Below, one piece after another: positions 20,719-62,064 of a stretch of DNA of 64,000 nt. A model generated the notes under the pieces. It worked only from the letters and a program-made list of their open reading frames with translations, was not told where the DNA came from and did not search any database. The number at the start of each line of letters is the position of its first letter. Position 1 is the stretch's first letter. Location of the stretch: the IMG/VR virus record IMGVR_UViG_3300049846_001482. One strand, given 5' to 3'. The DNA comes from an uncultured virus (IMG/VR IMGVR_UViG_3300049846_001482). Lineage: Duplodnaviria; Heunggongvirae; Uroviricota; Caudoviricetes. The translations under genes and the position numbers were made by a program.

Positions 20719-21085
20719 TTGCTGTATTGTTGGTTCTGCAAGTTCTGGAGGCGGTAGTTGTCTTTGGTTGTGTCAATGCTGATGATGACGTAATTATTAG
20801 GCGTTCTTGTATAGTCAAAGTTTGGAGCCAGTTTGTCTTGCAGCTCGTCGCCAACTCTATATTGATTCATATGAACCTCAAAACCACGATTGCAATGCCG
20901 ATCATCATGGAAAGTAAGATAGTAACCATCAAAAGTTTATCTGAGAACCCGTGCCAGTCTTTCTCTCTCCACTTCTCCACCATCATCTCGGCTTGAACCC
21001 ACAAGATGATGGCACAGAGGACTTCCATGCCTAAGAAAATTAGGCTAAACGCCACTTTCCATATCACTCCGAAGATCAGATCCAT
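20664..21085 (-). CDS. two small ORFs (20664..20870; 20867..21085, membrane protein)
   Basis: ORF track, 4-nt overlap, hydrophobic helices in the second. Confidence 0.55.
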
Positions 21086-21704
21086 CTATGCCCCTAATTT
21101 TGTTTGGCACCCAAGTCTTAGACCAGTGTTCAGTGGTGCGAACATGGTTCTTCCTGACGAACTTGGCGCAAAGATTTTTGTAGTCGTCCACGGAGAACTC
21201 AGAAACAGCCCTGATGACGTACCCTTCCATTTCCCCGCCGTAAGCCGACTGCCAAGGAACCTTGTAGTCTCTACTTAATACGCCCCTATAAAGGATGGGG
21301 ACATATTTAAGCCCAAGCCTCTCACACCACTCCAGGGTCTCATCCACCGACAGGAAGACATTCCTATCCTTGTCGATGACATTGAAGACGTAGAAGAAGT
21401 CGTCTAGGTTGTCGTAGAAGATGCTGTGCTTGGCGTAGACGTTCTCGCCGCAGATCTGGATATGGGCTGGGATGAGGTGTTTGATGGAGCCCCACTTGCC
21501 CTTGACCACACTCTGCCAGGGGTAGGCATCGCCATTCTCTGACCTTGCATGCAACTTATGGGAGTGCAAAGAGGTATTCTCGCCGTCTAACTTCTCAGTT
21601 ATGACGACCTCTTTGCCCCATAGGGAGTCCATTGTCTCGATCCTGCGGTCATCGTTCTGCAGGTTGGGAGAGTCTGGAGTATGCATGGTCTTCGGGTATT
21701 TCAT
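21045..21704 (-). CDS. RNA ligase family nucleotidyltransferase
   Basis: KYPKT.H, TEKLDGEN (motif I), ICGEN, FYVF, EGYVIR, AKFVR motifs. Confidence 0.9.
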   Translation of the reverse strand: MKYPKTMHTPDSPNLQNDDRRIETMDSLWGKEVVITEKLDGENTSLHSHKLHARSENGDAYPWQSVVKGKWGSIKHLIPAHIQICGENVYAKHSIFYDNLDDFFYVFNVIDKDRNVFLSVDETLEWCERLGLKYVPILYRGVLSRDYKVPWQSAYGGEMEGYVIRAVSEFSVDDYKNLCAKFVRKNHVRTTEHWSKTWVPNKIRGIDGSDLRSDMESGV

Positions 21705-23623: not shown

Positions 23624-23974
23624 CTACCACTCCAGATAAACGCCCTGCACCCACTTCCAGATCTTGTCCGTTCTGACGCTGTAGCCAAGAGCCTTAAAGT
23701 AGGAGGAGTTCTTAACGATGAAGTCAGCATCACTACCATCGTAGTATCTTTTATGTCCTCCATGACTTTTAGCTGCGTATTGAACTCCACCCAAGATGCT
23801 GTCAACCCTCTTTTTGAAGGTCTCCTCAGCATGTACTTTTGCGTTCTCTCTGGCTTGGTTGGCATTGAAGTGCTTGTTGTCTGCCAAGAGCACGTCTTTG
23901 TCCAGAACAATACCGTCCTGAACAATCTCTTTGCTCTCAAGAGGTTTCCCATCGATGAAAGCAGCCCTCTTCAT
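23624..23974 (-). CDS. hypothetical protein with MKRAAF tag
   Basis: 116 aa, overlaps the mnmA stop by 4 nt. Confidence 0.65.
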   Translation of the reverse strand: MKRAAFIDGKPLESKEIVQDGIVLDKDVLLADNKHFNANQARENAKVHAEETFKKRVDSILGGVQYAAKSHGGHKRYYDGSDADFIVKNSSYFKALGYSVRTDKIWKWVQGVYLEW

Positions 23975-25044
23975 ATGATCTGTCCTCCACCAAAACAGAC
24001 GTTGTTGCCTACGTCATAGAAGACCGCAGCCTGACCAGGGGAAATAGCCCTCTGGGGCTCCATGAACCGCACCAGAACCCCCTTATTCGTCACCTGGAGG
24101 GTCGCCAGGGCTGCTTTAGCCTGATGACGTATCTGGACTAGGGCCGAACCCTCGTAGGGCGTTCCAGACACCCAGTTGACGTTCTCAACCTCACAGCGGT
24201 CTGCATAGAGGTCAGCATCATCACCCAGAACCACCGTGTTAGATTCTTTGTCAATTCTGAGGACGTACTTGGGGTCTCCACCAGAGATGCCCAATCCACG
24301 CCTCTGTCCCACAGTATAGAATGCAATGCCATTGTGCTCGCCAATGACATGCCCCATCTTGTCCACCATAGGTCCAGGCTTCTTGACTTCCTTATCCAGA
24401 AGCTCAAGCACCTCTCGGTAGTCGCCATTGGGCACAAAGCAGATGTTCATGCTCTCTGGCTTGCGGGCATTCCTCAGACCAAACTCTTCGGCCTGCTGAC
24501 GGACCTGCTCCTTGCTGATGGCATTGCCAAGAGGAAAGAGCAGCTTCGACAACTGGCTCTGGTTAAGTCGATAGAGGAAGTAGGTCTGATCCTTCTCGGT
24601 GAACAGGGCTCGGCTCAGACGGAACTTGCCGTCCTTCTCGTCAATACGGGCATAGTGACCCGTAGCCAACTTGTCCATCTCAAGAGAGGTGGCAGTCTTC
24701 ATTAGCAGGTCAAACTTCAACCTGTCGTTACAAGCCACACAGGGGTTGGGTGTGCGTCCGTTCTGGTACTCCTCAAGGAAGTAGTCAACGACTATCTTCC
24801 TGAAAGCATCCTCGTAGTTGAACACGTAGTAGGGGAAGCCGATCTTGGAGGCTACCTGACGGGCATCCATCATATCGACAGAGCCGCAGCAAGCCTTGGT
24901 GTTGACATCACAATCCTGACCGGCCAGGAGTTTGTCCTGCCAGACCTTGAGGGTGACGCCGGTGACATCGTGGCCCTGCTTGTGAAGCAGAGCGGCGGTC
25001 ACAGAAGAATCAATGCCTCCCGACATTGCTACTAGAACCTTCAT
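23971..25044 (-). CDS. mnmA: tRNA 2-thiouridine(34) synthase
   Basis: AMSGGIDSS, GRTPNPCVACN, ATGHYAR, KDQTYFL, ES.NICF, YTVGQRRG, SPGQAAVFY motifs. Confidence 0.97.
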   Translation of the reverse strand: MKVLVAMSGGIDSSVTAALLHKQGHDVTGVTLKVWQDKLLAGQDCDVNTKACCGSVDMMDARQVASKIGFPYYVFNYEDAFRKIVVDYFLEEYQNGRTPNPCVACNDRLKFDLLMKTATSLEMDKLATGHYARIDEKDGKFRLSRALFTEKDQTYFLYRLNQSQLSKLLFPLGNAISKEQVRQQAEEFGLRNARKPESMNICFVPNGDYREVLELLDKEVKKPGPMVDKMGHVIGEHNGIAFYTVGQRRGLGISGGDPKYVLRIDKESNTVVLGDDADLYADRCEVENVNWVSGTPYEGSALVQIRHQAKAALATLQVTNKGVLVRFMEPQRAISPGQAAVFYDVGNNVCFGGGQII

Positions 25045-28505: not shown

Positions 28506-29600
28506 TCAGTTCTCCGTCTTGACGAGGTATTCGGGGCTACGCTGCTTGATGAAGAGACGGCCACGCTCACGAGACTGCGTTCCATCCTCCTTGGTCTTCA
28601 CCCACTCGACAATCTGCTCGGTGACGGGCTTGATGACGATACCCTCACGCAGAACGTCTGGGTTGATGAGAGACTTGCCGTTGGAAGCCTCCTGAACGGT
28701 CTTACCATTCAGCCAGTCACGCAGTTTGCCCCTGAAGATGGTGGGAGCAAACTCCACACGCTCTTCACCGAACAAGGCGTTCACCATCTCATCCACCGGC
28801 AGAGGATGTCCGTTGACTTCCAGTTCAAAGCTGAAAACCTTGTGGTCCTTCAGCTTGTAGTGGTTGCCCTGAATGCCAGGACCAGCCAGTTCTCCACGTA
28901 GGGTCACGGACTTGCCGTGGAACTTCTGCTTGTAGAGGTTGGTGATCACCGTGTCGAGCTGGAGGCTATTCACAGCCTTAATGAAGGTGTGAACGTCCTC
29001 TGAGCCTTCAATGGGGGTGACGGTGTGATGATGTTGGTTGACTCGGACCACACCGACCTGATCGATGGAGATGCCAAAGTTGGTGCCTTCGACCTTCTCG
29101 GAGATCCAGACTTCCTGATCCATCAGCATCTCGATGATGGCAGGGAAGCGGTCAGCGCCCTCGATGTCGTAGTGACCAACGAAAGCCGCCAAAGGTGTCA
29201 GGTTGGCTCCCTTTCCAGCAAACAGGATGGGTGGCTCGTACTTGGTGACACCCAGGGCTTCGGTCAGGTTGGCTGGCAGTTCAGTGACACCCAAGAACTC
29301 CTTGATCTTGCCAGCCTTGGCCACAAAGCCCTGGCTGTATTCGCCACGCAGCTTGGCTGACTTCACACGAGTCCGATCCTTGCCAGACAGGTAGTTCCTG
29401 ATCTGGAAGAACTCAATGAGAGGGTCAGGCAGGATGGAGTCAATGGGGAAGTAAACCACTTCCTCGCCAACCTGATATTCACCCTTTCCAACTGCGAACT
29501 GGAAGAGCAAGCCTTCAACGCTTGCAAGATCCAGTCGGTCAGCGTTGGAATGCGGCCAGACCTTTGAGATGTTCTTCTTTTCGACAGCGAAGAAAGCCAC
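28506..29600 (-). CDS. RNA ligase, DRB0094-like family (N-terminal OB-like domain)
   Basis: H.NADRL, VVYFPIDS.LP, KLRGEYSQG, LGV.KYEP, SEKVEGTN, LRGE..GPGIQGN, REGIV; GTG start inferred. Confidence 0.9.
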   Translation of the reverse strand: MAFFAVEKKNISKVWPHSNADRLDLASVEGLLFQFAVGKGEYQVGEEVVYFPIDSILPDPLIEFFQIRNYLSGKDRTRVKSAKLRGEYSQGFVAKAGKIKEFLGVTELPANLTEALGVTKYEPPILFAGKGANLTPLAAFVGHYDIEGADRFPAIIEMLMDQEVWISEKVEGTNFGISIDQVGVVRVNQHHHTVTPIEGSEDVHTFIKAVNSLQLDTVITNLYKQKFHGKSVTLRGELAGPGIQGNHYKLKDHKVFSFELEVNGHPLPVDEMVNALFGEERVEFAPTIFRGKLRDWLNGKTVQEASNGKSLINPDVLREGIVIKPVTEQIVEWVKTKEDGTQSRERGRLFIKQRSPEYLVKTEN

Positions 29601-29601
29601 G

Positions 29602-30039
29602 TTAGCTCTCCTTTCCAATGCGGTTTGCTTCAAACCACTCATCTAGGGTGTAGAAATCAGGGAAGTTCTCTTGCATTTCCCTCTTGCCGTAATCGGAGCG
29701 GTAGTAGAGGTCGCTGTAGTAGAACTCCTCACCAAGAAAGACCAGTGAATGCGGAGGGGTGGCAGGCTTCTCCCTGAAGAGAGCCACCATCTGTTCATCC
29801 AGTTCACCAGTCACCCCAGGCTTACGAGCCTTGCGAGACTTTTCTGCCAGAGCGTCGTACTTCTTACGCCACTCGGCGTCAGCCAGAGTATGGGCATCCC
29901 ACTGCTCACGCAGCTTTAGAAATGCCTCAAGGAAGTCATTCTCCAACTTCTCCTTGGACTCATACTCCACAGGGTACACGTAATCGCAAGAGCCACAAGG
30001 CTCGGATCCTGGAGGAGACCAAAAGATGATGCAACGCAT
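29602..30039 (-). CDS. hypothetical protein
   Basis: 145 aa; PVEYES...TLDEWF pattern. Confidence 0.65.
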   Translation of the reverse strand: MRCIIFWSPPGSEPCGSCDYVYPVEYESKEKLENDFLEAFLKLREQWDAHTLADAEWRKKYDALAEKSRKARKPGVTGELDEQMVALFREKPATPPHSLVFLGEEFYYSDLYYRSDYGKREMQENFPDFYTLDEWFEANRIGKES

Positions 30040-33627: not shown

Positions 33628-34199
33628 GTTCGGTTACGTGAGATATCCTGATGCTATGACCCATTGGATCTGGATAGTCAAAATCAAGGTCACGGACAGA
33701 CTTCACCCTCTTGACATGCATCTGCCGCCCTTTGCCCTTGTATTCTATTCCCAAACCCTTGACGCCCTTGACGGTCTTGCCCTTGATGAAGTTCATGGCC
33801 TTCATCCAAGCGTCTGAGGAATCCTTCGCATCAACCTCAACAAAGCTGGTGGCAGGGTAGTTCAACTCCAGGTCAACCTTGAATTTTTTCTTCTTAGCGC
33901 CCATGTCTTCCTCAGTTGTTAGGGATGCCCTTTGGAGGCTTGCCATTGATGATGTCTTCTGGCTTTGGTATGACCATTGCTTTGCGTGGCTCAGGCCAAG
34001 AGGCAATACGAGCCGTTTCTACCTCTACCCGTGGTCGGATGTAAGCCAGCACCTCGTCGTATTTCCTGACGATATCGAAATCGTCCTTTTCCTCAGCCAT
34101 CTTCCTCATAGCCAGCATCTCTGGGGCAAAGAGGAAGACCAACTGTTCGTCAGACATGGTATCGGCTCGGTTTTTCAATGGATCAACAAAACTGTCCAT
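33620..34199 (-). CDS. two small ORFs (33620..33904, 33912..34199)
   Basis: ORF track, packed. Confidence 0.55.
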
Positions 34200-36763
34200 T
34201 ACAGCCTCGGATCGAAGGTTTTCTCACGCTTCTCTTCAACGACCATCTCAGCGCACAGGTCAAGGTATTTGACATTGCTATCGCTGATGGCGTTGTAGGG
34301 AATCTCCAGCATAGCCTTGCCAATCTCAAACTCCTTGATGGATGTCTTGAGTTTGTTCCTGATGCTCTTGTCCTCAAGCATCTTGGTGAACTTAGGCTCA
34401 ATTTGGTAATCGTAGCCATAGATGATGGTGAGGTAGTTTGGATTCCTGACCTTCATGTATGGAGCAACGCCAGGGATGTAAACTTTGGCGGCTGGCTTGA
34501 CAACCACTCCCTCAACGTTGTTGCTGACCTGCTCGGCAAACCAAGCCTTAGCCTCAACAAGTCCAGCGTCGGTTGTCTCGCAAACAACAAAATCGTCATT
34601 TGAGACAGCAGAGAAGACTTCCTCGTTGCTTGCGTCAAAGTAGGTCTGCTCGACACCCTCAAAGGTAACGGTCTTGAGGAGAGCAAATGGCCTGAACTCC
34701 AACTCCCCTTCGTTGCCGTAGATCTCCATCTGCTTGTTGTAGATGGAAATTGCAGCCTTCTGCTCTTCCAAAGATAGCCATTTGAAGCCATCAAAGGCGG
34801 ACATGAGCCTGTAGGTAGCTTCGCCCATGCTGTCCATGAGGTCTTTCTTCTTTTGGCTATTCTTGAGGCTCTTGTAGCCAGATGCATCAAACTTCTCCTG
34901 CATCTTAGACAGGGATGACTCAAAGCCAGTCTTCTCCAGCAACTCGGCTTCAGTGGATAGCCCAACGCCAGTCGTCTTGAAGTGTGAGTCAATGAGTCCC
35001 TTACCCAGCGCAGACCAAGGCATTAGCTCACCATCAATGATGATTAGCTTCTTGTCGTCTTTGAAGCCCCTACCCATCCAGACTTCACGCATCTTCTTGT
35101 AAAGAGGGGTGAGGTCCAAGTGCTTGATGACAAAGCCATTACGGGACACCATGTAGGACTCTTCGATGTCGTGTGGGAAGAGATACATGTTGGCACGACT
35201 TCCCATATACTTCTTCTGGAGGATGACCCTTTCTACCTTGGATCCCCTAAAGTACTCAAAAGCCTCACGCATGTCTTCCAGCGTCCTCTCCTTGAGGTTC
35301 TTGTCGCATGGAGACATGGTTCCAGAGATGAAGTTGATCTTGTTTCGAGCAAACTTGACAACATCCATCTTGTCATCAAAATCCAGAGACTCGAACAAGC
35401 CCTGTTTCTTGATGATCTTGAAGTTGGCAATGTCCCCTTCGGCAGCACCCTTTGGAACGGAGCTGGGAACCCACTTAAAGCTGATGGTTCGGTTGTGGGA
35501 GTTGAAGAAGACCCCAGTCAACCTGTTTCCGTAGGCGCAGCCAGTATCGAGGAACACTTTGTTGCCGACAGTTGTAGCCTCAGCAACAGCAATGTGCCCA
35601 AAGAAGTGGTAGGGGTCACGCCTATTGGATTCATCAAAGACATAGTGAATGCTCTTCTTGATGCCCTCAATGAAGGCTTCGTCAGAGTCGTATTCCCTAC
35701 GCCAGCCATAGGAGCAGTTACCCTGATCCTTGGTGGAGCGATGATCCATCTTGCCAATGCGATTGTTGGCACAAGGGGCATGGGTGACAACAAAGTGATC
35801 GTGCAACAGGAAGTAAGAGCTGTTCTTCATGATCTCCATGAACTTGCTCTTGGCGCTCTCTGTCATCTGCCCGAAGGAGTCGAAGAACTTAGCCCTCAGT
35901 TCATCAGCAGCCTTGTCGTTGTGGTTGTTGGTGATGAAGCGAATCAGGGAGTGGTCGTGGTTTCCAATGACCGTCCTGATACGAGCCCTATTGGCGTGAA
36001 TGAACTCGATGAGGTCGTTGATCTGCGGACCTTTGTCAGCCAAATCGCCAGCAAGAACAATAAGGGTGTCGTCATTGCCCTTGATGATGCCAGCCTCAAT
36101 GGAAAAGCCAGCAGCAATCAGCAAGTCCTCAAATTCCTTGAGGCAAGCATGGATGTCGCCAACAATGAAGTAGCGACTGAACGGCGGCAGGACAGAAAGA
36201 GCCATCGTATCGTAAGTGGCATCCCTGTCCAAAACCAGTTCTGCGTCCTTCGACTTGATCTTGTGGAAGAACTCAAAGTCCCTGCGGCGAATCTCTCCCA
36301 GCGTCTCCTGCTTGAAACGCTTGAGATGCTGACCAATGAGCCAAGCATGCTTGGGGTCCGTGTACTTGAAGTACTCGTCCCTGTCGGCATAGTCAAAGCA
36401 GAAGCCCGTGAGGCGGTAATTGGCTTCTTTGGTCAGATCAATGAAACGCTGCCTAGACTTCTCACCAATGAAGGTGGCGTCCAGAATGACGAAATCGGCG
36501 GAAACGGGCCAAGTGGTGACGGCTTGGAACTTGGCCTCCATCAACTTAAAGGCTCCCTCAGAAGCATAGTTCATGAGGTCGTCTGCCTTATCCAAGTTCT
36601 TTCCAATGATCTCCCTGCGGTATTCGTCTGAACTCAAGATCTGAATATTGGCATTGGGGACCATGCTCTTGAGGGCAGGCACAAGCTTCTCACGGATGAA
36701 ATGGCTTTTGCCACACCCGCTTGGACCAACCATCATGATGACTGACTTCAATGGAACGTTCAT
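34199..36763 (-). CDS. pnkp: polynucleotide kinase-phosphatase-ligase (bacterial Pnkp type)
   Basis: P-loop GPSGCGKS; metallophosphatase GDIH/GD..DKG/GNHD; ligase KYMGSR, DGELMPW, EGVVVKP, KVRNP.YL.IIYG; ends DPRL. Confidence 0.95.
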   Translation of the reverse strand: MNVPLKSVIMMVGPSGCGKSHFIREKLVPALKSMVPNANIQILSSDEYRREIIGKNLDKADDLMNYASEGAFKLMEAKFQAVTTWPVSADFVILDATFIGEKSRQRFIDLTKEANYRLTGFCFDYADRDEYFKYTDPKHAWLIGQHLKRFKQETLGEIRRRDFEFFHKIKSKDAELVLDRDATYDTMALSVLPPFSRYFIVGDIHACLKEFEDLLIAAGFSIEAGIIKGNDDTLIVLAGDLADKGPQINDLIEFIHANRARIRTVIGNHDHSLIRFITNNHNDKAADELRAKFFDSFGQMTESAKSKFMEIMKNSSYFLLHDHFVVTHAPCANNRIGKMDHRSTKDQGNCSYGWRREYDSDEAFIEGIKKSIHYVFDESNRRDPYHFFGHIAVAEATTVGNKVFLDTGCAYGNRLTGVFFNSHNRTISFKWVPSSVPKGAAEGDIANFKIIKKQGLFESLDFDDKMDVVKFARNKINFISGTMSPCDKNLKERTLEDMREAFEYFRGSKVERVILQKKYMGSRANMYLFPHDIEESYMVSRNGFVIKHLDLTPLYKKMREVWMGRGFKDDKKLIIIDGELMPWSALGKGLIDSHFKTTGVGLSTEAELLEKTGFESSLSKMQEKFDASGYKSLKNSQKKKDLMDSMGEATYRLMSAFDGFKWLSLEEQKAAISIYNKQMEIYGNEGELEFRPFALLKTVTFEGVEQTYFDASNEEVFSAVSNDDFVVCETTDAGLVEAKAWFAEQVSNNVEGVVVKPAAKVYIPGVAPYMKVRNPNYLTIIYGYDYQIEPKFTKMLEDKSIRNKLKTSIKEFEIGKAMLEIPYNAISDSNVKYLDLCAEMVVEEKREKTFDPRL

Positions 36764-37688: not shown

Positions 37689-38930
37689 CTACTCCAAGAC
37701 AGCGCCAATGCTGCAGCTATGCCCATTGACGTTATCGCCAATTTCGATGATACGAGCAGACCTCTCGCCTTTAACTTCATTGATCCAAGCCTCAAACTCA
37801 GCCTTGGTCATCTCAAAGTGATGGTCATCATGACGCATCTCTTCGTCATCAAAGAAGTAGAACTGGTTAAAGTCCTTGTTTGGAGTCGTGATGATGACCT
37901 TCTTGCACCAACGACTGGAGAGCATTTGCTTGACAAGGCTGGTTGCCTCATCCTTCTCCATATGCTCAATGACTTCTGAGAGGATGATGTCATGCTCTTG
38001 CCTAAGATCCAGCAAGCTCGTAGTCGTAAGGAGATGTTCTGGTTTTTCAGCCATCTCACGAGCAAACCTACGCTTGACAGTCTCGATCATCTCAGGGTCT
38101 TTGTCAATGGCGATGTAAACGAATTCACCCATTTTGGGTAGAAAACGCTTGACAAAGTTGCCCTCACCGCAACCGAAGTCTACAACAATCTTGTCAAAAG
38201 CCAGTTCTTTCTCCACAGCCGCAATACGCTGTTGAGAAGCGAAGCCAAACTGGAACTTGATGTCCTCAAAGGAGTTCTGTTCAAGCGACTTGACGTGCTG
38301 TTTGAAAACAGAGATATCCCTCAAGACATTGACCTTGAAGACATACTTGACGAAGAAGGGAGCCTTGATCGTGGCAAGGTAACTGAGATACTTATTGATC
38401 TCAGCATCGTCCAGCCTGCGATTCTTCAAGACATTGAACATGGCAAAGAGCTGGACAAAGGAGAAAAGCGTCTTGAAGCTCTCTTTGGTCGAGAAGGTGA
38501 CACTAAAGTTGTTGGGGCAAACCTCAGTGAAATCAATCTTGACGTTGGTGAAGTATTTTTGGAAGATCTCCAAATACTTCTTCTTTACCAGCATCATGTT
38601 GACGAAGATGGAGTTCTCAAAGCCCTCAACGTCATCGCTGTTATCCTTCTTGATGACATGGGCAAAGAACTCGTTGATGGAGTCTAGGACAAACTCGGCA
38701 GCGTTGTGCTGGCTGGGATTGACATAGCTCCACTCTTCATCCTTGAACTTCTTGTAGGAGATCTCGTGTTCGTGGTCCTTGAAGTAGCAGTTGAAAACAG
38801 AGTCATTGTTGGAGTAGTAACCGAACAGCCGACCCTGCTTCAAGGAACGCACAATCATCCCCGACTCAGGGTTCTTCCTGATGATGAAGGACAACTTTGG
38901 GTTGTTTGACCTTACCTGCAAGAAAGCCAT
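37689..38930 (-). CDS. hen1: Hen1 3'-terminal RNA 2'-O-methyltransferase
   Basis: N-terminal LSF..RKNP region; DFGCGEG, EVIEH, ITTPN.DFN, RH.DH.FE motifs; near pnkp. Confidence 0.92.
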   Translation of the reverse strand: MAFLQVRSNNPKLSFIIRKNPESGMIVRSLKQGRLFGYYSNNDSVFNCYFKDHEHEISYKKFKDEEWSYVNPSQHNAAEFVLDSINEFFAHVIKKDNSDDVEGFENSIFVNMMLVKKKYLEIFQKYFTNVKIDFTEVCPNNFSVTFSTKESFKTLFSFVQLFAMFNVLKNRRLDDAEINKYLSYLATIKAPFFVKYVFKVNVLRDISVFKQHVKSLEQNSFEDIKFQFGFASQQRIAAVEKELAFDKIVVDFGCGEGNFVKRFLPKMGEFVYIAIDKDPEMIETVKRRFAREMAEKPEHLLTTTSLLDLRQEHDIILSEVIEHMEKDEATSLVKQMLSSRWCKKVIITTPNKDFNQFYFFDDEEMRHDDHHFEMTKAEFEAWINEVKGERSARIIEIGDNVNGHSCSIGAVLE

Positions 38931-46546: not shown

Positions 46547-46745
46547 TTTCTGCCTCGTACCATTGAACCCTGAGCCTATTGTCTCGGCTCCACAGTTTCC
46601 AGTGACCACCCCACAGATAGCACCACGTCAGCCCAAACCTTCCGATTTGGAGCTCGTACATAGTAGCGCCCTTTAGAACGCCCATCCATACCCCAAAGGG
46701 TCGGGCTGTGATGTAGTACTTGCCGACTGTGATGCCCGTCTTCAT
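46536..46745 (-). CDS. hypothetical protein
   Basis: 69 aa; overlaps the nadE stop by 4 nt. Confidence 0.5.
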   Translation of the reverse strand: MKTGITVGKYYITARPFGVWMGVLKGATMYELQIGRFGLTWCYLWGGHWKLWSRDNRLRVQWYEAENGD

Positions 46746-48472: not shown

Positions 48473-48546
48473 GGTTTCTCCTTTTGTTCTCGACTTTCTA
48501 ACCAGGAACCCAAACTAGTTGGGTTCAAGGTAAGACAGTGGAGACC

Positions 48547-49125: not shown

Positions 49126-49146
49126 GTCTTACTCCTTACGTTGGGG

Positions 49147-50283: not shown

Positions 50284-50304
50284 ATCTTCCTCCGAGTTGA
50301 CACC

Positions 50305-50333
50305 ACTCTAACATAGTAAGTATTACTTGTCAA
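50305..50333 (-). promoter_or_regulatory. sigma70-like promoter
   Basis: TTGACA-17 nt-TAGAGT. Confidence 0.6.
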
Positions 50334-50342
50334 TAGTTGGTG

Positions 50343-50912: not shown

Positions 50913-50913
50913 A

Positions 50914-51465: not shown

Positions 51466-51471
51466 TTTCTC

Positions 51472-51672
51472 CTATAGCTTGATGCCAGCATCTTTAGCGG
51501 CATAGTAAAGGTTTGCATGTCCGCATGGGCAAGTGTCCATGCCGTCATCATCACAGCCATCTTCATGAGAGTGGGCTATTTTGGTCCTCGAAAGGACTTC
51601 CCCAAGCTTCTTGATGGCAGGATGTTTTGCCAACTGCTCAGGGGTTAGGGACTTGATCTCGGCGTCAGTCAT
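51472..51672 (-). CDS. small hypothetical protein
   Basis: ORF from MTDAE overlapping the pncB end. Confidence 0.5.
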   Translation of the reverse strand: MTDAEIKSLTPEQLAKHPAIKKLGEVLSRTKIAHSHEDGCDDDGMDTCPCGHANLYYAAKDAGIKL

Positions 51673-52849: not shown

Positions 52850-52852
52850 GAC

Positions 52853-53320
52853 TTATCCTCGATTCTTAAAGAGATAGCGCCAAACAAGTTGAGCGCCAAA
52901 GACCGTCAGAAGCCAAGCCCGTCCAAAGAACGACTTCTTCTTGAAGTGAAGCTCATAGATGAGGTCGTAGCCCATCCGAGCAAACCACTCCTTATTCCGG
53001 TCCTCTTCGTTCATTGCATGGATGACGATTGTTTCTTCGGGGATAACACCGTGGGGTTCGAATTCAATCCCCCATGCAGTCGAAACCAACATTCGATTGA
53101 GGCACCTCTCATCGTAGACGCTTACTGCCTCAAAAGGATGGTCCGAACCACAACCGCAGTCCTCTTCGTGAGCCAACTTCACCTTCATCTTGTGCTGCTT
53201 CAAGAAGGGTGTAGTCAAGAAACCTTGTTCATCCAGTCTTAACTGCTTCTTCTCAAACCACTTCTCACATGGCTTGGAGCTGAACTTGACGATGGTTCCC
53301 TTGGGGACGATGATCTTCAC
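52853..53320 (-). CDS. hypothetical protein
   Basis: 155 aa, AGGAG RBS. Confidence 0.6.
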   Translation of the reverse strand: MKIIVPKGTIVKFSSKPCEKWFEKKQLRLDEQGFLTTPFLKQHKMKVKLAHEEDCGCGSDHPFEAVSVYDERCLNRMLVSTAWGIEFEPHGVIPEETIVIHAMNEEDRNKEWFARMGYDLIYELHFKKKSFFGRAWLLTVFGAQLVWRYLFKNRG

Positions 53321-53328
53321 GACTTCTC

Positions 53329-53601
53329 CTAAAGTTTGCTCATCAGGGCAGCAATGGCCATCCTGTCAATGCCGCTCAGTTCTACGAGTTTAGGAGAACC
53401 AACCTCTCTGATCATGTTGAGAACTTGCCTCGTCACCCATTTCTCACAAGCAGCCTGCGCCAGTTCGATGGTCTCGTAGTCATTATTGTCGGACCACGCT
53501 AGATTCTTCTCCACCCAGTGCCATTTCTTCCTACCCTGACTCTCAACCTCAAAGGTAAAGAGTCCGCAGATGAGTTGGCGTTTCTTCCACTTGAGAGCCA
53601 T
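53329..53601 (-). CDS. hypothetical protein
   Basis: 90 aa, GGAGG RBS. Confidence 0.6.
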   Translation of the reverse strand: MALKWKKRQLICGLFTFEVESQGRKKWHWVEKNLAWSDNNDYETIELAQAACEKWVTRQVLNMIREVGSPKLVELSGIDRMAIAALMSKL

Positions 53602-53817
53602 GACTAATCCTCCTCCTTCTTCATCCGTTGACGGACGATGCGCCGAGCAGTGCGATGCTCTTTCTTGACACCCTCGGAGCGGGCCTTTTTGGAACGCCGA
53701 TTGCGGTAGGACTCAGCAGGATACTTGTCATGCCCAGGGCAGCAAGACCCCAAGAACTTGAGTTGCTTGATTTCCCTCTTCATCGTAGCTCCAAAGTATC
53801 ACTTTCCTAGTTGCTTG

Positions 53818-54174
53818 TCAAGCCCTGTGTTCTCTGGTATTTGCCACTTCGGCCAGAGCGTCTATGGCAATGTGAGGTCCGAGAATCCTCTTGCCTTCGT
53901 AGAGAAAGGTCTCTCGGACCTCGTGTTCCATTGCCTGTAGGACTGCCAAGAAGGCTGTCTTGACCACTTCGCCCTTGACCATGTAAGGGGAGATGTAGAA
54001 CTTCCTCCCCTTTTGCAGCTCCATTTCTTGGGTGTAGATGTCCCTGTCCATGAAGCTGACCTGAAGCAGCCAGCCCCTATCAGAGATGGGTTCAAGAAGG
54101 AACTTCCAGTCCTTGAACTCGATCTTGCTGATGATCTCAGCGACTTGCTCTTTGGTCATGGCTGGCTGGTTCAT
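53818..54174 (-). CDS. conserved phage-type hypothetical protein
   Basis: Q.GRK.YIS.Y....EVVKTAF.A...A.EHEVRE.F.Y...R..GPH pattern; GAGG RBS. Confidence 0.7.
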   Translation of the reverse strand: MNQPAMTKEQVAEIISKIEFKDWKFLLEPISDRGWLLQVSFMDRDIYTQEMELQKGRKFYISPYMVKGEVVKTAFLAVLQAMEHEVRETFLYEGKRILGPHIAIDALAEVANTREHRA

Positions 54175-54178
54175 GGCA

Positions 54179-54829
54179 TCACCTCACCAAGATGATGTCG
54201 TCAGCATTGGCGACGATCTTGATGCCCACAGCTTCCATGTCCTTGATGGCAGCAGCCGTGGTCTCGGCGGTGATGCCTCGGCAAGCCGCCAGATTGATGA
54301 TGACATCAAAGCCAGCCTTGCGGAGTTGCAGAGCCGTGGTCTTCACGCAGTAGTCGGTGGCCAGCCCGCCCACGATGACCGTGTTGACGTACTTGCCCTT
54401 CAAGAACTCGATGACGCCGGTGCTGCGCTTGTCAGCGAGGTCGTGGTAGCAAGCCCCATAGGGGTGGCTGTCGGCTTCGATGCCCTTGTAGGCCACGAAG
54501 TCGTAGTCCAGCGGAGCAGGCAGGCCGGGCAGGAAGGCGAAGCCCTGCGTTCCCACTTCGCAGTGACGGTTCCAACGGATGTCCACGTTGGCGGTCCCCA
54601 CAGGGCTGAACTGGGGATGCGCCTCGTCAGCGATCCAGTCACCCTTGGGGTTGTGGGCGTCCTTGCTGGCCACACGAAGATGGGCCTTGGTGGCTTGCTT
54701 GTTCAGTTGGAAGACGATGTTGTGTCCGTCTTCCACGGGCAGCTCGTTGGGGCAGAGAGGAGTGAAACCCTGCTGCGGGTCCACATCGAAGCTTGCGGTG
54801 TCCTTGCTCACTACATATACCTTTTCCAT
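54179..54829 (-). CDS. pncA: nicotinamidase (isochorismatase family)
   Basis: DVD.Q.GF, D.H, W..HC..GT.G, YKG, GGLATDYCV catalytic motifs. Confidence 0.93.
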   Translation of the reverse strand: MEKVYVVSKDTASFDVDPQQGFTPLCPNELPVEDGHNIVFQLNKQATKAHLRVASKDAHNPKGDWIADEAHPQFSPVGTANVDIRWNRHCEVGTQGFAFLPGLPAPLDYDFVAYKGIEADSHPYGACYHDLADKRSTGVIEFLKGKYVNTVIVGGLATDYCVKTTALQLRKAGFDVIINLAACRGITAETTAAAIKDMEAVGIKIVANADDIILVR

Positions 54830-54831
54830 GA

Positions 54832-55812
54832 CTATTCTCCTTTGTTATTCTGCGCCCTCAGTAGGTGCGCTTTGAGTAGGGTGTAGAGAACCCTGTGTTC
54901 TGGAACGAAGATCTCTTCGTCCAGTCTTTCAATGTCGAACCATTTCAGTTCGGCAATATCGTCGGCGGCTTTCGGCTCACCAACGAAGTCGTAGATGGCA
55001 TAGAGCGAAGTCATGATGCCGTCTTGTTCGTTTCGATAGCGCCAGTCGTCGATCTTGGCGCTTCCGCAGTAGATGGGTTCTCCCAGACCACGCAGACCCG
55101 TCTCTTCTGCAGCCTCACGCTGAACAGCCACTTCCTTTGAGGCATCCTGATTGATGTCCACGAAGCCACCAATGAAACGCCACTTGCCATCGGGGTCGTT
55201 CTCCTTACGGGCAAGCAAAAGGCGATATGTGGGCTTGTCGATGATGGCTGCATCAACGGTAGTGTAGCTGGTGGGGAAGCGGTCAAAGCAGCAGGCAATC
55301 CAAGCCTCACGGACCTCTTCCGAGTCAAAGGCATCTCCGCTCTCATCGCTGAAAAGAGCCTCGATCATCTTGCGGATATCCGACCCCGACACGGTGCGAC
55401 GGGCTTCCAGCGAGACGGTGGGAAAAACACCCTTGTAATAGGGGATGAACCCATCACGGCTTCCATAGAGCGTGACAGGGCCGTTGGGGTAGGCTTTGCG
55501 GATTTTCTCGTCAAGGGTCTTCGACCAGAGGACATGGTGGTTCACGTCCTTGATCTCAAGGATCTTCATGATGGGGTCGCCAGGAACGCCTTTGAAGGCA
55601 TTCATGATCATCTTCTTACGGGCTTTGAACGGGAGGGGGTTGTAGCGGCTTGCTTTGATGGGCGAAGTGCCTAAAAAAACCAAAACCTTTTCATGACGCT
55701 CAAAAACGTCATTGAAAAGGTCAATGTGGCCTTCGGTAAGTTTTGGGACTTGGAATCGCCCGACGATGACGCCAATGCCAGGCTGCTTGAGTTGCTTGAA
55801 TGCGTTGCTCAT
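54832..55812 (-). CDS. bifunctional NMN/NaMN adenylyltransferase - Nudix (ADP-ribose pyrophosphatase-like), NadM-Nudix type
   Basis: GVIVGRFQ...TEGH, NPL.F..R..M, SGS.IR; Nudix box GGFVD....E.A..RE..EETG; A.DD. Confidence 0.92.
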   Translation of the reverse strand: MSNAFKQLKQPGIGVIVGRFQVPKLTEGHIDLFNDVFERHEKVLVFLGTSPIKASRYNPLPFKARKKMIMNAFKGVPGDPIMKILEIKDVNHHVLWSKTLDEKIRKAYPNGPVTLYGSRDGFIPYYKGVFPTVSLEARRTVSGSDIRKMIEALFSDESGDAFDSEEVREAWIACCFDRFPTSYTTVDAAIIDKPTYRLLLARKENDPDGKWRFIGGFVDINQDASKEVAVQREAAEETGLRGLGEPIYCGSAKIDDWRYRNEQDGIMTSLYAIYDFVGEPKAADDIAELKWFDIERLDEEIFVPEHRVLYTLLKAHLLRAQNNKGE

Positions 55813-60516: not shown

Positions 60517-60592
60517 TGGTGGAGCTTAGGGGAATCGAACCCCTGACCTTTTCAGTGCGAGTGAAACGCTCTCCCGACTGAGCTAAAGCCCC
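60517..60592 (-). tRNA. tRNA-Ala(CGC)
   Basis: GGGGCUU/AAGCUCC acceptor with G3:U70, loop CUCGCAC, CCA. Confidence 0.95.
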
Positions 60593-60597
60593 AAAAC

Positions 60598-60673
60598 TGG
60601 TGGACAGAGAGGGAGTTGAACCCCCGACACCCTCCTCTTCAGGGAGGTGCTCTACCAACTGAGCTATCTGTCC
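60598..60673 (-). tRNA. tRNA-Phe(GAA)
   Basis: Cloverleaf, loop CUGAAGA, CCA. Confidence 0.93.
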
Positions 60674-60677
60674 AAAA

Positions 60678-60753
60678 TGGTGGAACGGGTGGGGATCGAA
60701 CCCACGACCCAGCGATTAAGAGTCGCTTGCTCTACCAACTGAGCTACCGTTCC
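60678..60753 (-). tRNA. tRNA-Lys(CUU)
   Basis: Cloverleaf, loop CUCUUAA, CCA. Confidence 0.95.
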
Positions 60754-61123: not shown

Positions 61124-61199
61124 TGGTGCCACGGGAGGGAATCGAACCCCCGACACTTCGCTCTTCAGGCGAATGCTCTACCAACTGAGCTACCGTGGC
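61124..61199 (-). tRNA. tRNA-Phe(GAA), second copy
   Basis: Cloverleaf, loop CUGAAGA, CCA. Confidence 0.95.
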
Positions 61200-61200
61200 G

Positions 61201-61428
61201 TTATTTCACTAGCTTTACCAAGCCCTGATCTAGAAGTTCTAGGGCTATCTCTTTCGTGAAGTGGAAGGTGGCTCCAGCCTTAGCCATTTTCCGTCCACTC
61301 TGTCCAAGATACTGCGACATGGCTTCTGCGTCTGGATAAAGTATCTTTACCTTGACGCTATCCTTGACCCTGCATCTCTTGGTGAGGAAGTTTGGGTCAA
61401 CCATGAAGTTCAAATCGAGCTTTTTCAC
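61201..61428 (-). CDS. hypothetical protein
   Basis: GTG start with AGGAG RBS. Confidence 0.55.
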   Translation of the reverse strand: MKKLDLNFMVDPNFLTKRCRVKDSVKVKILYPDAEAMSQYLGQSGRKMAKAGATFHFTKEIALELLDQGLVKLVK

Positions 61429-61453
61429 TATTGCTCCTACACTTGATTGTCGG

Positions 61454-61579
61454 TGGTGAGCCGGGTGGGGATCGAACCCACGACCCACGGATTAAAACTT
61501 TTCAAGGACTGAGGAATCGAACCCCATCATCTTACCCTTTGTCCCTGGTCCGTTGCTCTACCAACTGAGCTACCGGCTC
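61454..61579 (-). tRNA. tRNA-Lys(UUU) interrupted by a 50-nt insertion (61498..61547) between C32 and U33
   Basis: Removing 61498..61547 yields a canonical 76-nt tRNA (ACGGA-CUUUUAA-UCCGU anticodon arm, CCA). Confidence 0.88.
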
Positions 61580-61649
61580 ATCACCAAAAATCAAGCTTCA
61601 AAGATACGGTTGCATTTTATACCTTTAAGCGGTATTTTTTGCAACCCCT

Positions 61650-61692
61650 AAAAACACGAAACCCACTCCATCTTACAGAGTGGGTAGTTTCT
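61650..61692 (-). terminator. intrinsic terminator-like hairpin
   Basis: ACCCACUC/GAGUGGGU stem followed by UUCGUGUUUUU. Confidence 0.6.
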
Positions 61693-62064
61693 TGTCAAAC
61701 GAAATCGCCGCCACTCTTATGAGACGTTAGTAAACCTCTTGGCGAATTTTCGGAATGACTGGTACATTGGATCCTCTTTGTTAGTTTGGTAGAACTTTTG
61801 CTGGCTCTACGCCTCGGTGGACGAACTCGCCAAGGGACGATACCCTAGATGACTGTTTTGGCATTGGCCGCTGGGTGGGACTCGAACCCACGATCACCCC
61901 TAGACGGGGCTGCTTTAGCCACTGAGCTACCTGCGTCCTAGCCTCTGTCACCGCAAACTTGTCGGCGGTCCCATGCCGTTGGGATTACTCTGGCTACCCT
62001 GCTCAAACCGGGGAAAGTCCTCTTGGATTTCTCCAAGCCCCTAATCCAGACCGCTATCTTCTAT
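61650..62064 (-). ncRNA. candidate ~400-nt structured ncRNA containing a degenerate tRNA-like domain (~61865..61936)
   Basis: ORF-free, bounded by a promoter and a terminator; several hairpins plus an 11-bp long-range stem. Confidence 0.6.

What the first reader, a model, noticed from the sequence alone, without database searches (positions are those of the whole stretch)
61454..61579. tRNA-Lys(UUU) with a tRNA-mimic (acceptor stem plus T-arm) nested in its anticodon loop
Seen: an otherwise canonical tRNA-Lys(UUU) carries exactly 50 extra nt (61498..61547) between C32 and U33: CAGGGAC-AAAGGGUAAGAUGA-UGGGG-UUCGAUU-CCUCA-GUCCUUG-AAAAG. The insert folds as a tRNA top half: a 7-bp acceptor-like stem (CAGGGAC/GUCCUUG) next to a canonical 5-bp T-stem with a UUCGAUU loop, with no D or anticodon arm. 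It is far too short for a group I/II intron, and I see no bulge-helix-bulge. The precursor flanks also pair (CUUGAUU/AAUCAAG, GGUG/CACC). Established: RNase P and tRNase Z recognise the acceptor/T-arm shape; tRNA-Lys(UUU) is the target of the defence nucleases PrrC and PARIS AriB; MnmA thiolates its U34. Intron-like inserts have been predicted before in large-phage tRNAs, but I know no mechanism for one like this. Inference: tRNA-processing enzymes excise the mimic (an RNase P cut would fall right after C32) and phage Pnkp/Hen1 or an RNA ligase in this window rejoins the exons, giving a new kind of tRNA splicing or a nuclease-shielded reserve/decoy tRNA. The trailing AAAG would need an additional cut.
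Basis: partly seen in the sequence, partly recalled or inferred. Interest (0 to 1): 0.9.

Follow-up and report, generated by a model that had tools for sequence, protein, structure and literature searches.

The report
Mini-tRNA intron inside phage lysine tRNA
A large freshwater-sediment phage carries a lysine tRNA gene split in its anticodon loop by a 50-base miniature tRNA, and an unrelated metagenome contig has the same arrangement, which points to an undescribed way of cutting an intron out of a tRNA with ordinary tRNA-trimming enzymes.

Summary
Bases 61454-61579 (minus strand) are a complete tRNA-Lys(UUU) gene (Rfam 56.6 bits). It is interrupted between C32 and U33 by exactly 50 nt (61498-61547): a 7-bp acceptor-like stem, a 14-nt linker, a canonical 5-bp T stem with loop UUCGAUU, and the tail AAAAG.

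A metagenome scan found one second case (L034). This is a high-GC, chromosome-like contig with a 50-nt insert at the same site and of the same build. Its stem sequences differ: 4 of the 12 insert pairs changed on both sides, and all still pair. Its tail is G-CCA, directly abutting U33.

The fold is therefore under selection, so this is not a scar or an assembly artefact. There is no bulge-helix-bulge motif, no group I core and no ribozyme match.

In both cases the 5' border is exactly where RNase P would cut. In L034 the 3' border is where a CCA-tolerant RNase Z would cut. The window's AAAAG tail does not fit that.

The phage encodes two Rnl-type RNA ligases, Pnkp/Hen1 and MnmA. I found no RNA data, so splicing is inferred and not shown.

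Similar tRNA-shaped introns are known but unexplained in Lak megaphages (Devoto 2019), and this scan noted them before on other DNA. This is a minimal new variant.

The parts
61454..61579 (-). Whole interrupted tRNA-Lys(UUU) gene with encoded CCA (126 nt)
   Evidence: Rfam RF00005 at 56.6 bits, model 1-71. Own model R1 scores 165.2 bits. Sequence.
61548..61579 (-). Exon 1: tRNA nt 1-32 (acceptor 5' strand, D arm, anticodon stem 5' strand, C32)
61498..61547 (-). 50-nt insert (mini-tRNA intron) between C32 and U33
   Evidence: A homologous 50-nt insert lies at L034 3066-3017.
61541..61547 (-). Insert acceptor-like stem, 5' strand CAGGGAC. Its first base is the predicted RNase P +1 position.
   Evidence: Pairs with 61503-61509. 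All 7 pairs are kept in L034: 2 changed on both sides and 1 on one side.
61527..61540 (-). 14-nt linker AAAGGGUAAGAUGA in place of the D and anticodon arms. It contains GGG, as does the 15-nt linker of L034.
   Evidence: The sequences are not alignable between the two copies.
61510..61526 (-). Insert T arm: UGGGG / UUCGAUU / CCUCA (G53-C61, U54 U55 C56 G57 A58)
   Evidence: all 5 pairs kept: 2 changed on both sides, 1 on one side. Local Rfam hits are to tmRNA T arms only.
61503..61509 (-). Insert acceptor-like stem, 3' strand GUCCUUG, directly after the T stem as in a tRNA
61498..61502 (-). Tail AAAAG (discriminator-like A plus AAAG) before U33. L034 has G-CCA here.
61454..61497 (-). Exon 2: U33, anticodon UUU, A37 A38, anticodon stem 3' strand, variable loop, T arm, acceptor 3' strand, A73, CCA
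61582..61596 (-). Leader half of a leader-trailer stalk (GCUUGAUU-U-UUGGUG)
   Evidence: MFE fold with z -4.3, 0 of 200 shuffles as good. Duplex energy -20.8 kcal/mol, the strongest of 9 tRNAs.
61441..61455 (-). Trailer half of the stalk (CACCGA-C-AAUCAAGU). It covers C75 and A76 of the tRNA.
61616..61644 (-). Promoter-like site TTGCAA-17 nt-TATAAA about 30 nt upstream of tRNA +1
   Evidence: Read by eye. The scan tool does not list it because it requires T at the last position of the second hexamer.
61651..61685 (-). Terminator-like hairpin plus T run just upstream of that promoter
21045..21704 (-). RNA ligase (Rnl family, 219 aa): candidate sealing enzyme
   Evidence: PF09414 1.6e-30. PHROG RNA ligase families.
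28506..29642 (-). RNA ligase with N-terminal OB domain (378 aa): candidate sealing enzyme
   Evidence: PF09414 6.9e-14 and PF21189. phrog_968.
34199..36763 (-). Bacterial-type Pnkp (kinase, phosphatase, ligase domains; 854 aa)
   Evidence: PF16542 2e-30, AAA_33, Metallophos
37689..38930 (-). Hen1 RNA 2'-O-methyltransferase, partner of Pnkp
   Evidence: PF22032 3.8e-56 plus methyltransferase domains
23971..25044 (-). MnmA-type tRNA 2-thiouridylase. That it acts on U34 of tRNA-Lys(UUU), Glu and Gln is recalled knowledge.
   Evidence: PF03054 4.6e-76, PF20259, PF20258

Best explanation
This is an expression-ready phage tRNA-Lys(UUU) gene with a small intron of an unusual kind. The intron is a miniature tRNA: an acceptor-like stem stacked on a T arm, joined by a short linker, with no D arm and no anticodon arm.

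Shown: the same 50-nt build sits at the same C32/U33 site in a second, unrelated genome, and both stems are kept by compensatory changes. Selection therefore acts on the mini-tRNA fold.

Inferred mechanism:
1. The host's tRNA end-processing enzymes read the intron as a tRNA. RNase P cuts at the 5' end of its acceptor-like stem, which is exactly the 5' splice site. This leaves C32 with a 3'-OH.
2. A second endonuclease frees U33 with a 5'-phosphate. In L034 the border lies right after G-CCA, where a CCA-tolerant RNase Z cuts. In the window the tail is AAAAG, so a cut four bases past the discriminator is needed. The enzyme is unknown (RNase E or Y type, or a dedicated one).
3. The two halves stay together through the acceptor and anticodon stems and, in the phage, through a 14-bp leader-trailer stalk that acts as a clamp.
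4. The nick in the anticodon loop is sealed by one of the phage's ATP-dependent RNA ligases or by Pnkp/Hen1.
5. The stalk is then removed and the tRNA matures. U34 thiolation by the phage MnmA would be part of that.
For: - The exons make a full tRNA-Lys(UUU) (56.6 bits). Their anticodon arm is identical to that of 30 uninterrupted phage tRNA-Lys genes in IMG/VR.
- A second case was found blind, by an exon-gap-exon pattern. Of the 5 metagenome hits, 1 (L034) has a 50-nt insert of the same build.
- On the structural alignment, 66 of 66 pair cells pair. Six pairs changed on both sides, 4 of them in the insert's two stems, and 2 more insert pairs changed on one side. Sliding the 3' partners by 1-3 columns drops pairing to 33-55%.
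- The exons are 66/72 identical. The structured part of the insert is only 20/31 identical, yet it still folds.
- The build arises in 12 of 300,000 (window) and 113 of 300,000 (L034) shuffles.
- In 2 of 2 cases the 7-bp stem starts at insert nt 1. In L034 the insert ends G-CCA directly before U33.
- From abstracts: T. maritima tRNase Z cuts CCA-containing precursors right after A76 (PMC1540738). Archaeal RNase Zs cut after CCA or after the discriminator, need a matured 5' end, and need only the acceptor stem (PMC7479834).
- The window encodes two PF09414 RNA ligases, Pnkp, Hen1, a Thg1-like protein and MnmA.
- The leader-trailer stalk is unique to this tRNA among the window's 9. A promoter-like site and an upstream terminator hairpin flank the gene.
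- The insert is present at full depth in the source run's contigs.
Against: - There is no RNA evidence of any kind. No cut, junction or ligation has been seen.
- There are only two cases. The shuffle control on two sequences is weak: 12 of 500 shuffles reach the observed values.
- The window's tail AAAAG has no CCA. An RNase Z cut after the discriminator would leave AAAG on exon 2 and give an 11-nt loop.
- The helix right next to C32 might hinder RNase P.
- Minimum-energy folding does not favour the T arm in either insert.
- L034 has no significant leader-trailer stalk (z -1.03, 26 of 200 shuffles as good). Whether its genome has an Rnl-type ligase is unknown.
- The phage uses AAA rarely (133 against 580 AAG in 26 ORFs) and has an intact tRNA-Lys(CUU), so the pressure to keep this gene working may be low.
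- The element is very rare. There were 0 hits in IMG/VR with four different patterns and 0 true hits among 7 in 185,579 species genomes.
Confidence: 0.4

Rival explanations
1. The RNA works unspliced. It would be a tRNA-shaped non-decoding RNA with an extra tRNA-like arm, for example a decoy or sponge for an anticodon nuclease or a tRNA-modifying enzyme, or a precursor whose useful product is the released mini-tRNA itself.
For: - The fold is conserved, but no splicing machinery is identified. No tRNA-intron endonuclease appeared among 98 window ORFs scanned with Pfam.
- tRNA-Lys(UUU) is a known target of phage-defence nucleases, and phage tRNA-Lys variants counter them (abstract of 10.1101/2025.02.04.636281; PMC11464382 seen in the listing only).
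- Earlier notes of this scan describe several phage tRNA-shaped RNAs that cannot be turned into tRNAs.
- The window's mini-helix has G3-U70 and A73, which I recall as alanine identity marks.
Against: - Removing exactly 50 nt restores a perfect 7-nt loop CUUUUAA in both genomes, which a decoy does not need.
- Both host tRNA bodies stay flawless, with compensated changes in the acceptor and T stems.
- The second copy sits among ordinary bacterial genes, not in a phage.
- G3-U70 is not kept in L034, which has G3-C70.
Confidence: 0.2
2. It is a dead or dying gene. A small tRNA-derived element, or a fragment from tRNA-tRNA recombination, landed in the anticodon loop and is tolerated because the phage also has tRNA-Lys(CUU) and can use host tRNAs.
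For: - The element is extremely rare.
- AAA is the minor lysine codon in this phage.
- The window's tail lacks CCA.
- Partial tRNA-Lys duplications that begin in the anticodon loop are common in the same scans: 4 of 5 metagenome hits and 7 of 7 genome hits.
- There is no RNA evidence.
Against: - The insert is not made of pieces of its host tRNA. Its acceptor strands are unrelated.
- Two copies as diverged as 20/31 in the stems and T loop keep 12 of 12 pairs, 4 through double changes.
- The exons show no decay in either genome.
- The gene has its own promoter-like site and a strong processing stalk.
Confidence: 0.2
3. It is an assembly or chimera artefact of the metagenome.
For: The window comes from a metagenome. 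tRNA genes share k-mers and can be mis-joined, as in L037 and L038, which contain N runs.
Against: - A contig of the source run spans 61472-61728 with 0 differences, at the depth of its neighbours (about 150 against 138-151).
- The only joints that skip the insert have short sides (24-36 nt) at 80% likeness, so they are other organisms' tRNAs.
- An independent contig from another collection and another GC class has the same build.
Confidence: 0.02

Closest known systems
'Enigmatic' tRNA introns of Lak megaphages (Devoto et al. 2019, PMC6784885; text passages, Fig. 4 legend and Table S6 read)
   Same: Both are short, non-group-I inserts in the anticodon loop of phage tRNA genes. As I read the Table S6 sequences by eye, the Lak inserts contain a tRNA-like unit with a 7-8-bp acceptor-type stem closed directly on a T arm (for example ...AATGGTTCGATTCCATT + TATAGAGA), followed by a tail of 1-3 nt before exon 2. 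Their removal mechanism is unknown.
   Different: Lak introns are 79-114 nt and AT-rich. They sit next to position 37 and begin with an extra hairpin and linker, so an RNase P cut would not coincide with the 5' splice site. Here the intron is the mini-tRNA alone (50 nt), sits at 32/33, starts exactly at the stem, and lies in a 49% GC non-Lak phage and in a 65% GC bacterial-looking contig. I saw no sequence similarity.
Archaeal and eukaryal protein-spliced tRNA introns (bulge-helix-bulge, EndA/Sen endonuclease plus RtcB or Trl1 ligase; recalled, with reviews PMC4090602 and PMC3400036 seen only in listings)
   Same: A short intron in the anticodon region, removed by protein endonucleases and rejoined by an RNA ligase. 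The mature domain holds the halves together.
   Different: No BHB motif was found at either border, and no EndA-like domain appeared in 98 window ORFs. The predicted ends would be 3'-OH and 5'-P (RNase P/Z chemistry), not 2',3'-cyclic phosphate and 5'-OH.
Bacterial group I introns in tRNA anticodon loops (cyanobacterial tRNA-Leu(UAA), Azoarcus tRNA-Ile; recalled)
   Same: Both interrupt a bacterial-type tRNA gene in the anticodon loop.
   Different: Group I introns are about 200 nt or more and self-splice through a conserved core. This insert is 50 nt and gives no Rfam match beyond its T arm.
T4 PrrC / Pnkp / Rnl1 tRNA-Lys break-and-repair, and bacterial Pnkp/Hen1 RNA repair (recalled; domains found)
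   Same: The same tRNA species and the same loop. The proposed last step, sealing a nick in the anticodon loop of tRNA-Lys(UUU) with a phage RNA ligase, is what this pathway does. Pnkp, Hen1 and two Rnl ligases are in the window.
   Different: That pathway repairs damage from a defence nuclease at 33/34 and has no intervening sequence. Here 50 nt must first be excised at 32/33.
tRNA-like processing signals cut by RNase P and RNase Z (mascRNA of MALAT1, mitochondrial tRNA punctuation, plant t-elements; minihelix model substrates of RNase P; recalled)
   Same: An acceptor plus T-arm mimic with no decoding function serves only to direct RNase P/Z cuts that separate flanking RNAs. L034's T arm gives a local hit to the mascRNA model, but it is not significant (E = 5).
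   Different: Those signals separate independent RNAs and the flanks are not rejoined. Here the flanks are two halves of one tRNA and must be ligated.

Membership tests
tRNA (Rfam RF00005), lysine UUU | Full cloverleaf match above the gathering score | tested here: met
   56.6 bits against 29, model 1-71. All 21 host-tRNA pairs are standard in both copies.
tRNA (Rfam RF00005), lysine UUU | Contiguous 7-nt anticodon loop | tested here: not met
   56 nt lie where the model has 6. The loop CUUUUAA exists only after removal of 61498-61547.
BHB (archaeal or eukaryal type) tRNA intron | Two 3-nt bulges around a 4-bp helix that carry the splice sites | tested here: not met
   My simple search around both borders found no candidate in the window or in L034.
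BHB (archaeal or eukaryal type) tRNA intron | Splicing endonuclease (EndA/Sen) available | tested here: inconclusive
   None among 98 window ORFs at Pfam E <= 0.001-0.01. The rest of the phage genome and the host are not available.
Group I intron | Conserved catalytic core of about 200 nt or more, matching the Rfam intron models | tested here: not met
   The insert is 50 nt. There is no Rfam match at the gathering score or at E <= 10 apart from T-arm fragments.
Small self-cleaving ribozymes (hammerhead, twister, pistol, hatchet, HDV-like) | Match to the family model | tested here: not met
   No such hit at E <= 10 on either insert.
Lak-type tRNA-containing phage tRNA introns (Devoto 2019) | Insert in the anticodon loop of a phage tRNA that contains an acceptor-stem plus T-arm unit close to the 3' border | tested here: met
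   The comparison with Table S6 was made by eye.
Lak-type tRNA-containing phage tRNA introns (Devoto 2019) | 5' hairpin and AT-rich linker before the tRNA-like unit; position next to nt 37; length 79-114 nt | tested here: not met
   The insert starts with the stem, lies at 32/33 and is 50 nt.
RNase P substrate (minihelix type) | 7-bp acceptor-type stem stacked directly on a 5-bp T stem with a T loop of UUCRANY type | tested here: met
   Both copies: UUCGAUU and UUCGAGU, with the G53-C61 pair kept.
RNase P substrate (minihelix type) | 3' RCCA after the stem | tested here: inconclusive
   Met in L034 (G-CCA) and not met in the window (A-AAAG).
RNase P substrate (minihelix type) | Actual cleavage at the predicted site | not testable with these tools
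   This needs an in vitro or in vivo assay. No RNA run holds the stretch.
RNase Z substrate | 3' border at the discriminator (CCA-less) or after A76 (CCA-containing) | tested here: inconclusive
   L034's border lies after CCA. The window's border lies 4 nt beyond the discriminator. Enzyme rules are taken from abstracts.

The most novel reading that the evidence does not exclude
This would be a third route of tRNA splicing, found in bacteria and their phages. The intron is itself a minimal tRNA mimic, so the universal tRNA end-trimming enzymes excise it: RNase P at its 5' end and an RNase Z-type cut at its CCA or tail. These cuts leave 3'-OH and 5'-P ends that an Rnl-type RNA ligase or Pnkp/Hen1 seals in the anticodon loop. 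The Lak megaphage 'enigmatic' introns would be elaborated versions of the same principle. The released mini-tRNA might also have a role of its own.
Probability: 0.3. Interest if true: 0.9.

Novelty: new variant of a known kind. Interest (0 to 1): 0.68.

Why it matters
Bacteria and phages are only known to remove tRNA introns by self-splicing (group I). The short tRNA-like introns seen in Lak megaphages in 2019 remain unexplained.

This 50-nt case strips that kind of intron down to its essential part. Together with the second copy it yields exact, checkable predictions: a cut after C32 by RNase P, a cut before U33 (right after CCA in L034), 3'-OH and 5'-P ends, and sealing by named ligase genes in the same window. 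This turns an open question into a simple bench experiment.

If it holds, it would:
- add a protein- and RNase P-dependent splicing pathway to bacterial RNA biology;
- give phage RNA ligases and Pnkp/Hen1 a housekeeping role beside repair;
- show that standard tRNA finders overlook such genes (ARAGORN missed both copies).

Tried and rejected
**Searches for relatives and further copies**
- INPHARED with the region: 1 record, covering 47 nt of an ordinary tRNA-Lys. INPHARED and plasmids with the L034 gene: 33 and 6 records, none covering 80% or more, all ordinary tRNA parts.
- No whole genome is held for the window.
- IMG/VR scans that gave nothing:
  - exact insert;
  - exon-gap-exon, strict and loose, 35-65 nt;
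  - exon-gap-exon, 5-34 nt.
- Mini-tRNA pattern in IMG/VR: 6 hits. Four are ordinary tRNAs and two have only 4-bp stems.
- Genome collection: 7 hits, all tandem or partial tRNA duplications or N runs.
- Protein-based search for related phages with two neighbouring genes: none found. The best INPHARED protein hit for a 712-aa neighbour is 37.7% identical.

**RNA evidence**
- No RNA holder was listed for the stretch.
- Contigs of 4 runs gave no high-identity joint across the insert. In the likely source run, a lower-depth relative stops 4 nt into the insert. That is uninformative.

**Readings rejected**
- BHB intron, group I intron or ribozyme, and assembly artefact (together with L034).
- Integration (att) scar: unlike L032, L035 and L042, the insert is not a copy of the host tRNA's 3' part.
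- A hybrid tRNA made of the host D arm plus the insert T arm. cmscan reports this for L034 at 20.9 bits, but the acceptor strands do not pair.
- An alanine-accepting minihelix: G3-U70 and A73 occur in the window only and are not conserved.
- Intron-anticodon pairing: the AAAA tail is adjacent to UUUU and cannot fold back on it, and L034 lacks it.

**Literature**
Four full-text searches found no paper that describes a minihelix or tRNA-like intron removed by RNase P/Z in bacteria or phages. Subscription journals are not covered.
Full report
**1. What is there**

On the minus strand, 61579-61454 reads as a complete tRNA-Lys(UUU) gene with encoded CCA. Its parts are:
- acceptor GAGCCGG/CCGGCUC;
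- D arm GCUC-AGUUGGUA-GAGC;
- anticodon stem ACGGA/UCCGU;
- variable loop GGGUC;
- T arm GUGGG-UUCGAUC-CCCAC.

The gene is interrupted between C32 and U33 by 50 nt (61547-61498). Rfam's tRNA model aligns end to end at 56.6 bits, with 56 nt where 6 loop positions are expected. ARAGORN lists 8 other tRNAs and misses this one. All 9 gathering-level Rfam matches in the window are tRNAs.

The insert is CAGGGAC / AAAGGGUAAGAUGA / UGGGG-UUCGAUU-CCUCA / GUCCUUG / AAAAG. That is a 7-bp stem closed directly on a 5-bp stem with a consensus T loop, then five unpaired bases.

**2. Is it more than chance?**

This build (a 7-bp stem from nt 1 abutting a 5-7-5 hairpin) arose in 12 of 300,000 shuffles of the insert. 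Energy alone is unimpressive. The insert MFE is -15.3 kcal/mol with z = -2.06. It keeps the 7-bp stem but prefers another inner pairing to the T arm, which costs 2.7 kcal/mol more. Real T arms are often mispredicted in the same way: the host tRNA's own T arm is misfolded in the MFE.

**3. A second, independent copy**

The loose pattern GGTAGAGC-N4-GAC-N35-65-TTTTAATC-N4-GGTC gave these results:
- 0 hits in IMG/VR;
- 5 hits in the metagenome collection;
- 7 hits in one genome per 185,579 species.

Eleven of the 12 hits are tandem or partial tRNA duplications or N runs. The twelfth, L034 (2973-3098, minus strand), is a tRNA-Lys(UUU) with an insert of exactly 50 nt at the same C32/U33 site: GGGGGAC / UGCGACCGGGCAGCA / GCGGG-UUCGAGU-CCCGU / GUCCCCU / GCCA.

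The contig has 62-68% GC. It carries genes for ComA (phosphosulfolactate synthase), a prenyltransferase-like protein and a DUF4175 protein. This looks like ordinary bacterial chromosome and is unrelated to the 48.8% GC phage window. My model of the window gene scores L034 at 98.3 bits across all 126 positions.

On that structural alignment, 66 of 66 pair cells are standard pairs. Six pairs changed on both sides:
- two in the insert's acceptor-like stem (C-G to G-U, A-U to G-C);
- two in the insert's T stem (U-A to G-U, G-C to C-G);
- one each in the host acceptor and host T stems.

Two more insert pairs changed on one side (G-U to G-C). Sliding the 3' partners by 1-3 columns leaves 33-55% pairing. 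With only two sequences the shuffle control is weak (12 of 500), and the alignment was fitted to the structure.

The exons are 66/72 identical. The insert's stems and T loop are only 20/31 identical, and the linkers cannot be aligned. The T-arm hallmarks (G53-C61, U54 U55 C56 G57 A58) are present in both copies. I conclude that the mini-tRNA fold is under selection. This argues against a recombination scar or a decaying pseudogene.

**4. Not an artefact**

A contig of the run that holds the window spans 61472-61728 with no differences, at the depth of its neighbours. That run may be the source, so it is not independent. L034 is independent. Joints that skip exactly 61498-61547 occur in two other runs. 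Their sides are only 29-36 nt at 80% likeness, so they are other organisms' uninterrupted tRNA-Lys genes. The uninterrupted form of this anticodon arm occurs in 30 IMG/VR contigs. These differ from the window's joined exons at 9-27 of 76 positions.

**5. What it is not**

- There is no bulge-helix-bulge at either border in either copy.
- At 50 nt there is no room for a group I core, and Rfam gives nothing at the gathering score.
- With the inserts searched alone at E <= 10, only T-arm fragments of tmRNA and mascRNA models appear, and no ribozyme family.
- No tRNA-intron endonuclease domain appears among 98 window ORFs scanned with Pfam.

**6. Context in the phage**

The window is phage DNA. 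It has PhoH, a terminase fragment and a virion protein, and nearly all genes are on the minus strand.

It is rich in tRNA and RNA-repair functions:
- two Rnl-family RNA ligases (21045-21704, 28506-29642);
- a bacterial-type Pnkp (34199-36763) next to Hen1 (37689-38930);
- a Thg1-like protein (14254-15027);
- PTH2 (13475-13870);
- a full-length MnmA (23971-25044, PF03054 4.6e-76).

I recall that MnmA thiolates U34 of tRNA-Lys(UUU), tRNA-Glu and tRNA-Gln. Of these three, only the interrupted tRNA-Lys(UUU) is in the window.

The gene is preceded by a terminator-like hairpin. Read by eye, a TTGCAA-17-TATAAA promoter-like site lies about 30 nt upstream.

The leader and trailer pair over 14 bp and extend the acceptor stem. 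The extended fold has z = -4.3, and 0 of 200 shuffles fold as well. The leader-trailer duplex energy of -20.8 kcal/mol is the strongest among the window's 9 tRNAs; the others range from -4.1 to -12.8. L034 shows only a weak and non-significant equivalent.

AAA is the minor lysine codon (133 against 580 AAG in 26 ORFs). An intact tRNA-Lys(CUU) lies nearby.

**7. Most likely mechanism (inferred, not shown)**

In both copies the acceptor-like stem starts at the first insert base. RNase P, which I recall accepts acceptor plus T-arm minihelices, would therefore cut exactly at the 5' splice site and leave C32 with a 3'-OH.

In L034 the insert ends G-CCA directly before U33, which is the mature 3' end of a tRNA. 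According to the abstracts I read:
- T. maritima tRNase Z cuts CCA-containing precursors right after A76 (PMC1540738).
- Archaeal RNase Zs cut after CCA or after the discriminator, need a matured 5' end, and require only the acceptor stem (PMC7479834).

Two such cuts would release the mini-tRNA. They would leave a nick with 3'-OH and 5'-P ends in the anticodon loop. An ATP-dependent RNA ligase seals that kind of nick without end healing, and the phage has two such ligases plus Pnkp/Hen1. The stalk could clamp the halves together until they are sealed.

The weak point is the window's tail AAAAG. A cut after the discriminator would leave AAAG on exon 2. The sequence AG|UUU fits the RNase E preference RN|WUU as I recall it, but this is only a lead. 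I put about 0.4 on 'a conserved mini-tRNA intron excised by tRNA-processing-type cuts and religated', and about 0.5 on splicing of any kind.

**8. Rivals**

- An unspliced tRNA-shaped RNA, acting as a decoy or as a source of the mini-tRNA: 0.2. Against it, exact removal restores a perfect loop in both copies, and the second copy is chromosomal.
- A tolerated dead gene: 0.2. For it: rarity, low AAA use, the missing CCA in the window, and no RNA data. Against it: the compensatory changes and the intact exons.
- An assembly artefact: 0.02.

**9. Comparison with what is known**

Devoto et al. 2019 reported 'enigmatic' introns in Lak megaphage tRNAs, one of which 'itself may encode a tRNA' (passages and Table S6 read). 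By eye, each Table S6 intron ends in an acceptor-type stem closed on a T arm, with a tail of 1-3 nt. Those introns are 79-114 nt, sit next to position 37, and start with an extra hairpin and linker.

Earlier notes of this scan describe the same Lak-type build on other DNA (e1-5959538 and e1-5822854). I did not re-test those notes beyond reading the paper's table.

The present element differs in four ways:
- it is the mini-tRNA alone;
- it sits at 32/33;
- its 5' border coincides with the RNase P site;
- it occurs outside Lak phages and apparently in a bacterium.

Four full-text searches found no paper proposing or showing RNase P/Z-type excision of a tRNA intron in bacteria or phages. Subscription journals are not covered.

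**10. Verdict**

This is a real, conserved and rare element. It is a new, minimal variant of the unexplained tRNA-like phage tRNA introns, and it comes with a concrete, testable processing model. Splicing itself is unproven.

Noticed in passing
L001 1190-1328, 1497-1630, 3676-3809, 3919-4050; L002 763-898, 1160-1293, 3794-3922, 4025-4158 (L021 repeats L001): Large IMG/VR phage tRNA arrays hold several tRNA genes with inserts of about 55-70 nt in the anticodon loop, and ARAGORN misses most of them (one ARAGORN call overlaps L001 3919-4050). The inserts share a conserved core (…CCUGUCCG…UCCCGCAAGGGUGGCG…GGGUUACUUAG…) and have no T loop. This is a different family of short phage tRNA inserts.
   Followed up: partly
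window 61866-61936 (-), promoter-like site 62098-62071: A tRNA-like gene called Arg(tct) by ARAGORN scores only 34.8 bits. It has a 5-nt anticodon loop (GUCUA) and two mismatches in the acceptor stem. It lies about 130 nt downstream of a strong promoter-like site, TTGACA-16-TACAAT.
   Followed up: partly
window 23971-25044 (-): This phage gene is labelled 'QueC-like' by PHROGs (phrog_1741). It is a full three-domain MnmA-type tRNA 2-thiouridylase by Pfam.
   Followed up: partly
window 46742-55812 (-): An NAD salvage and synthesis cluster in the phage: NadE-like NAD synthetase, NAPRTase, an isochorismatase-type amidase and a cytidylyltransferase-Nudix fusion.
   Followed up: no
window 1958-3230 (-): The terminase large-subunit match covers only the back part of the GpA ATPase domain in a 283-aa ORF that overlaps a 142-aa ORF. 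The gene may be split or interrupted.
   Followed up: no
L032 3001-3076, L035 2462-2557, L042 166-247: In each, a complete tRNA-Lys gene is followed within 20-40 nt by a second copy of its 3' part that starts in the anticodon loop. This pattern is expected at integration (att) sites.
   Followed up: no
window 61172-61501: The likely source run also holds a lower-depth relative: a 340-nt contig at depth 27 with 52 differences and 16 gaps. It covers the spacer and exon 2 and stops 4 nt into the insert. A related strain is therefore present, but whether it has the insert is unknown.
   Followed up: no
window 60517-60753 (-): Three tRNA genes (Lys-CUU, Phe, Ala) lie head to tail, each with an encoded CCA, separated by spacers of only 4-5 nt (UUUU, GUUUU).
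   Followed up: no
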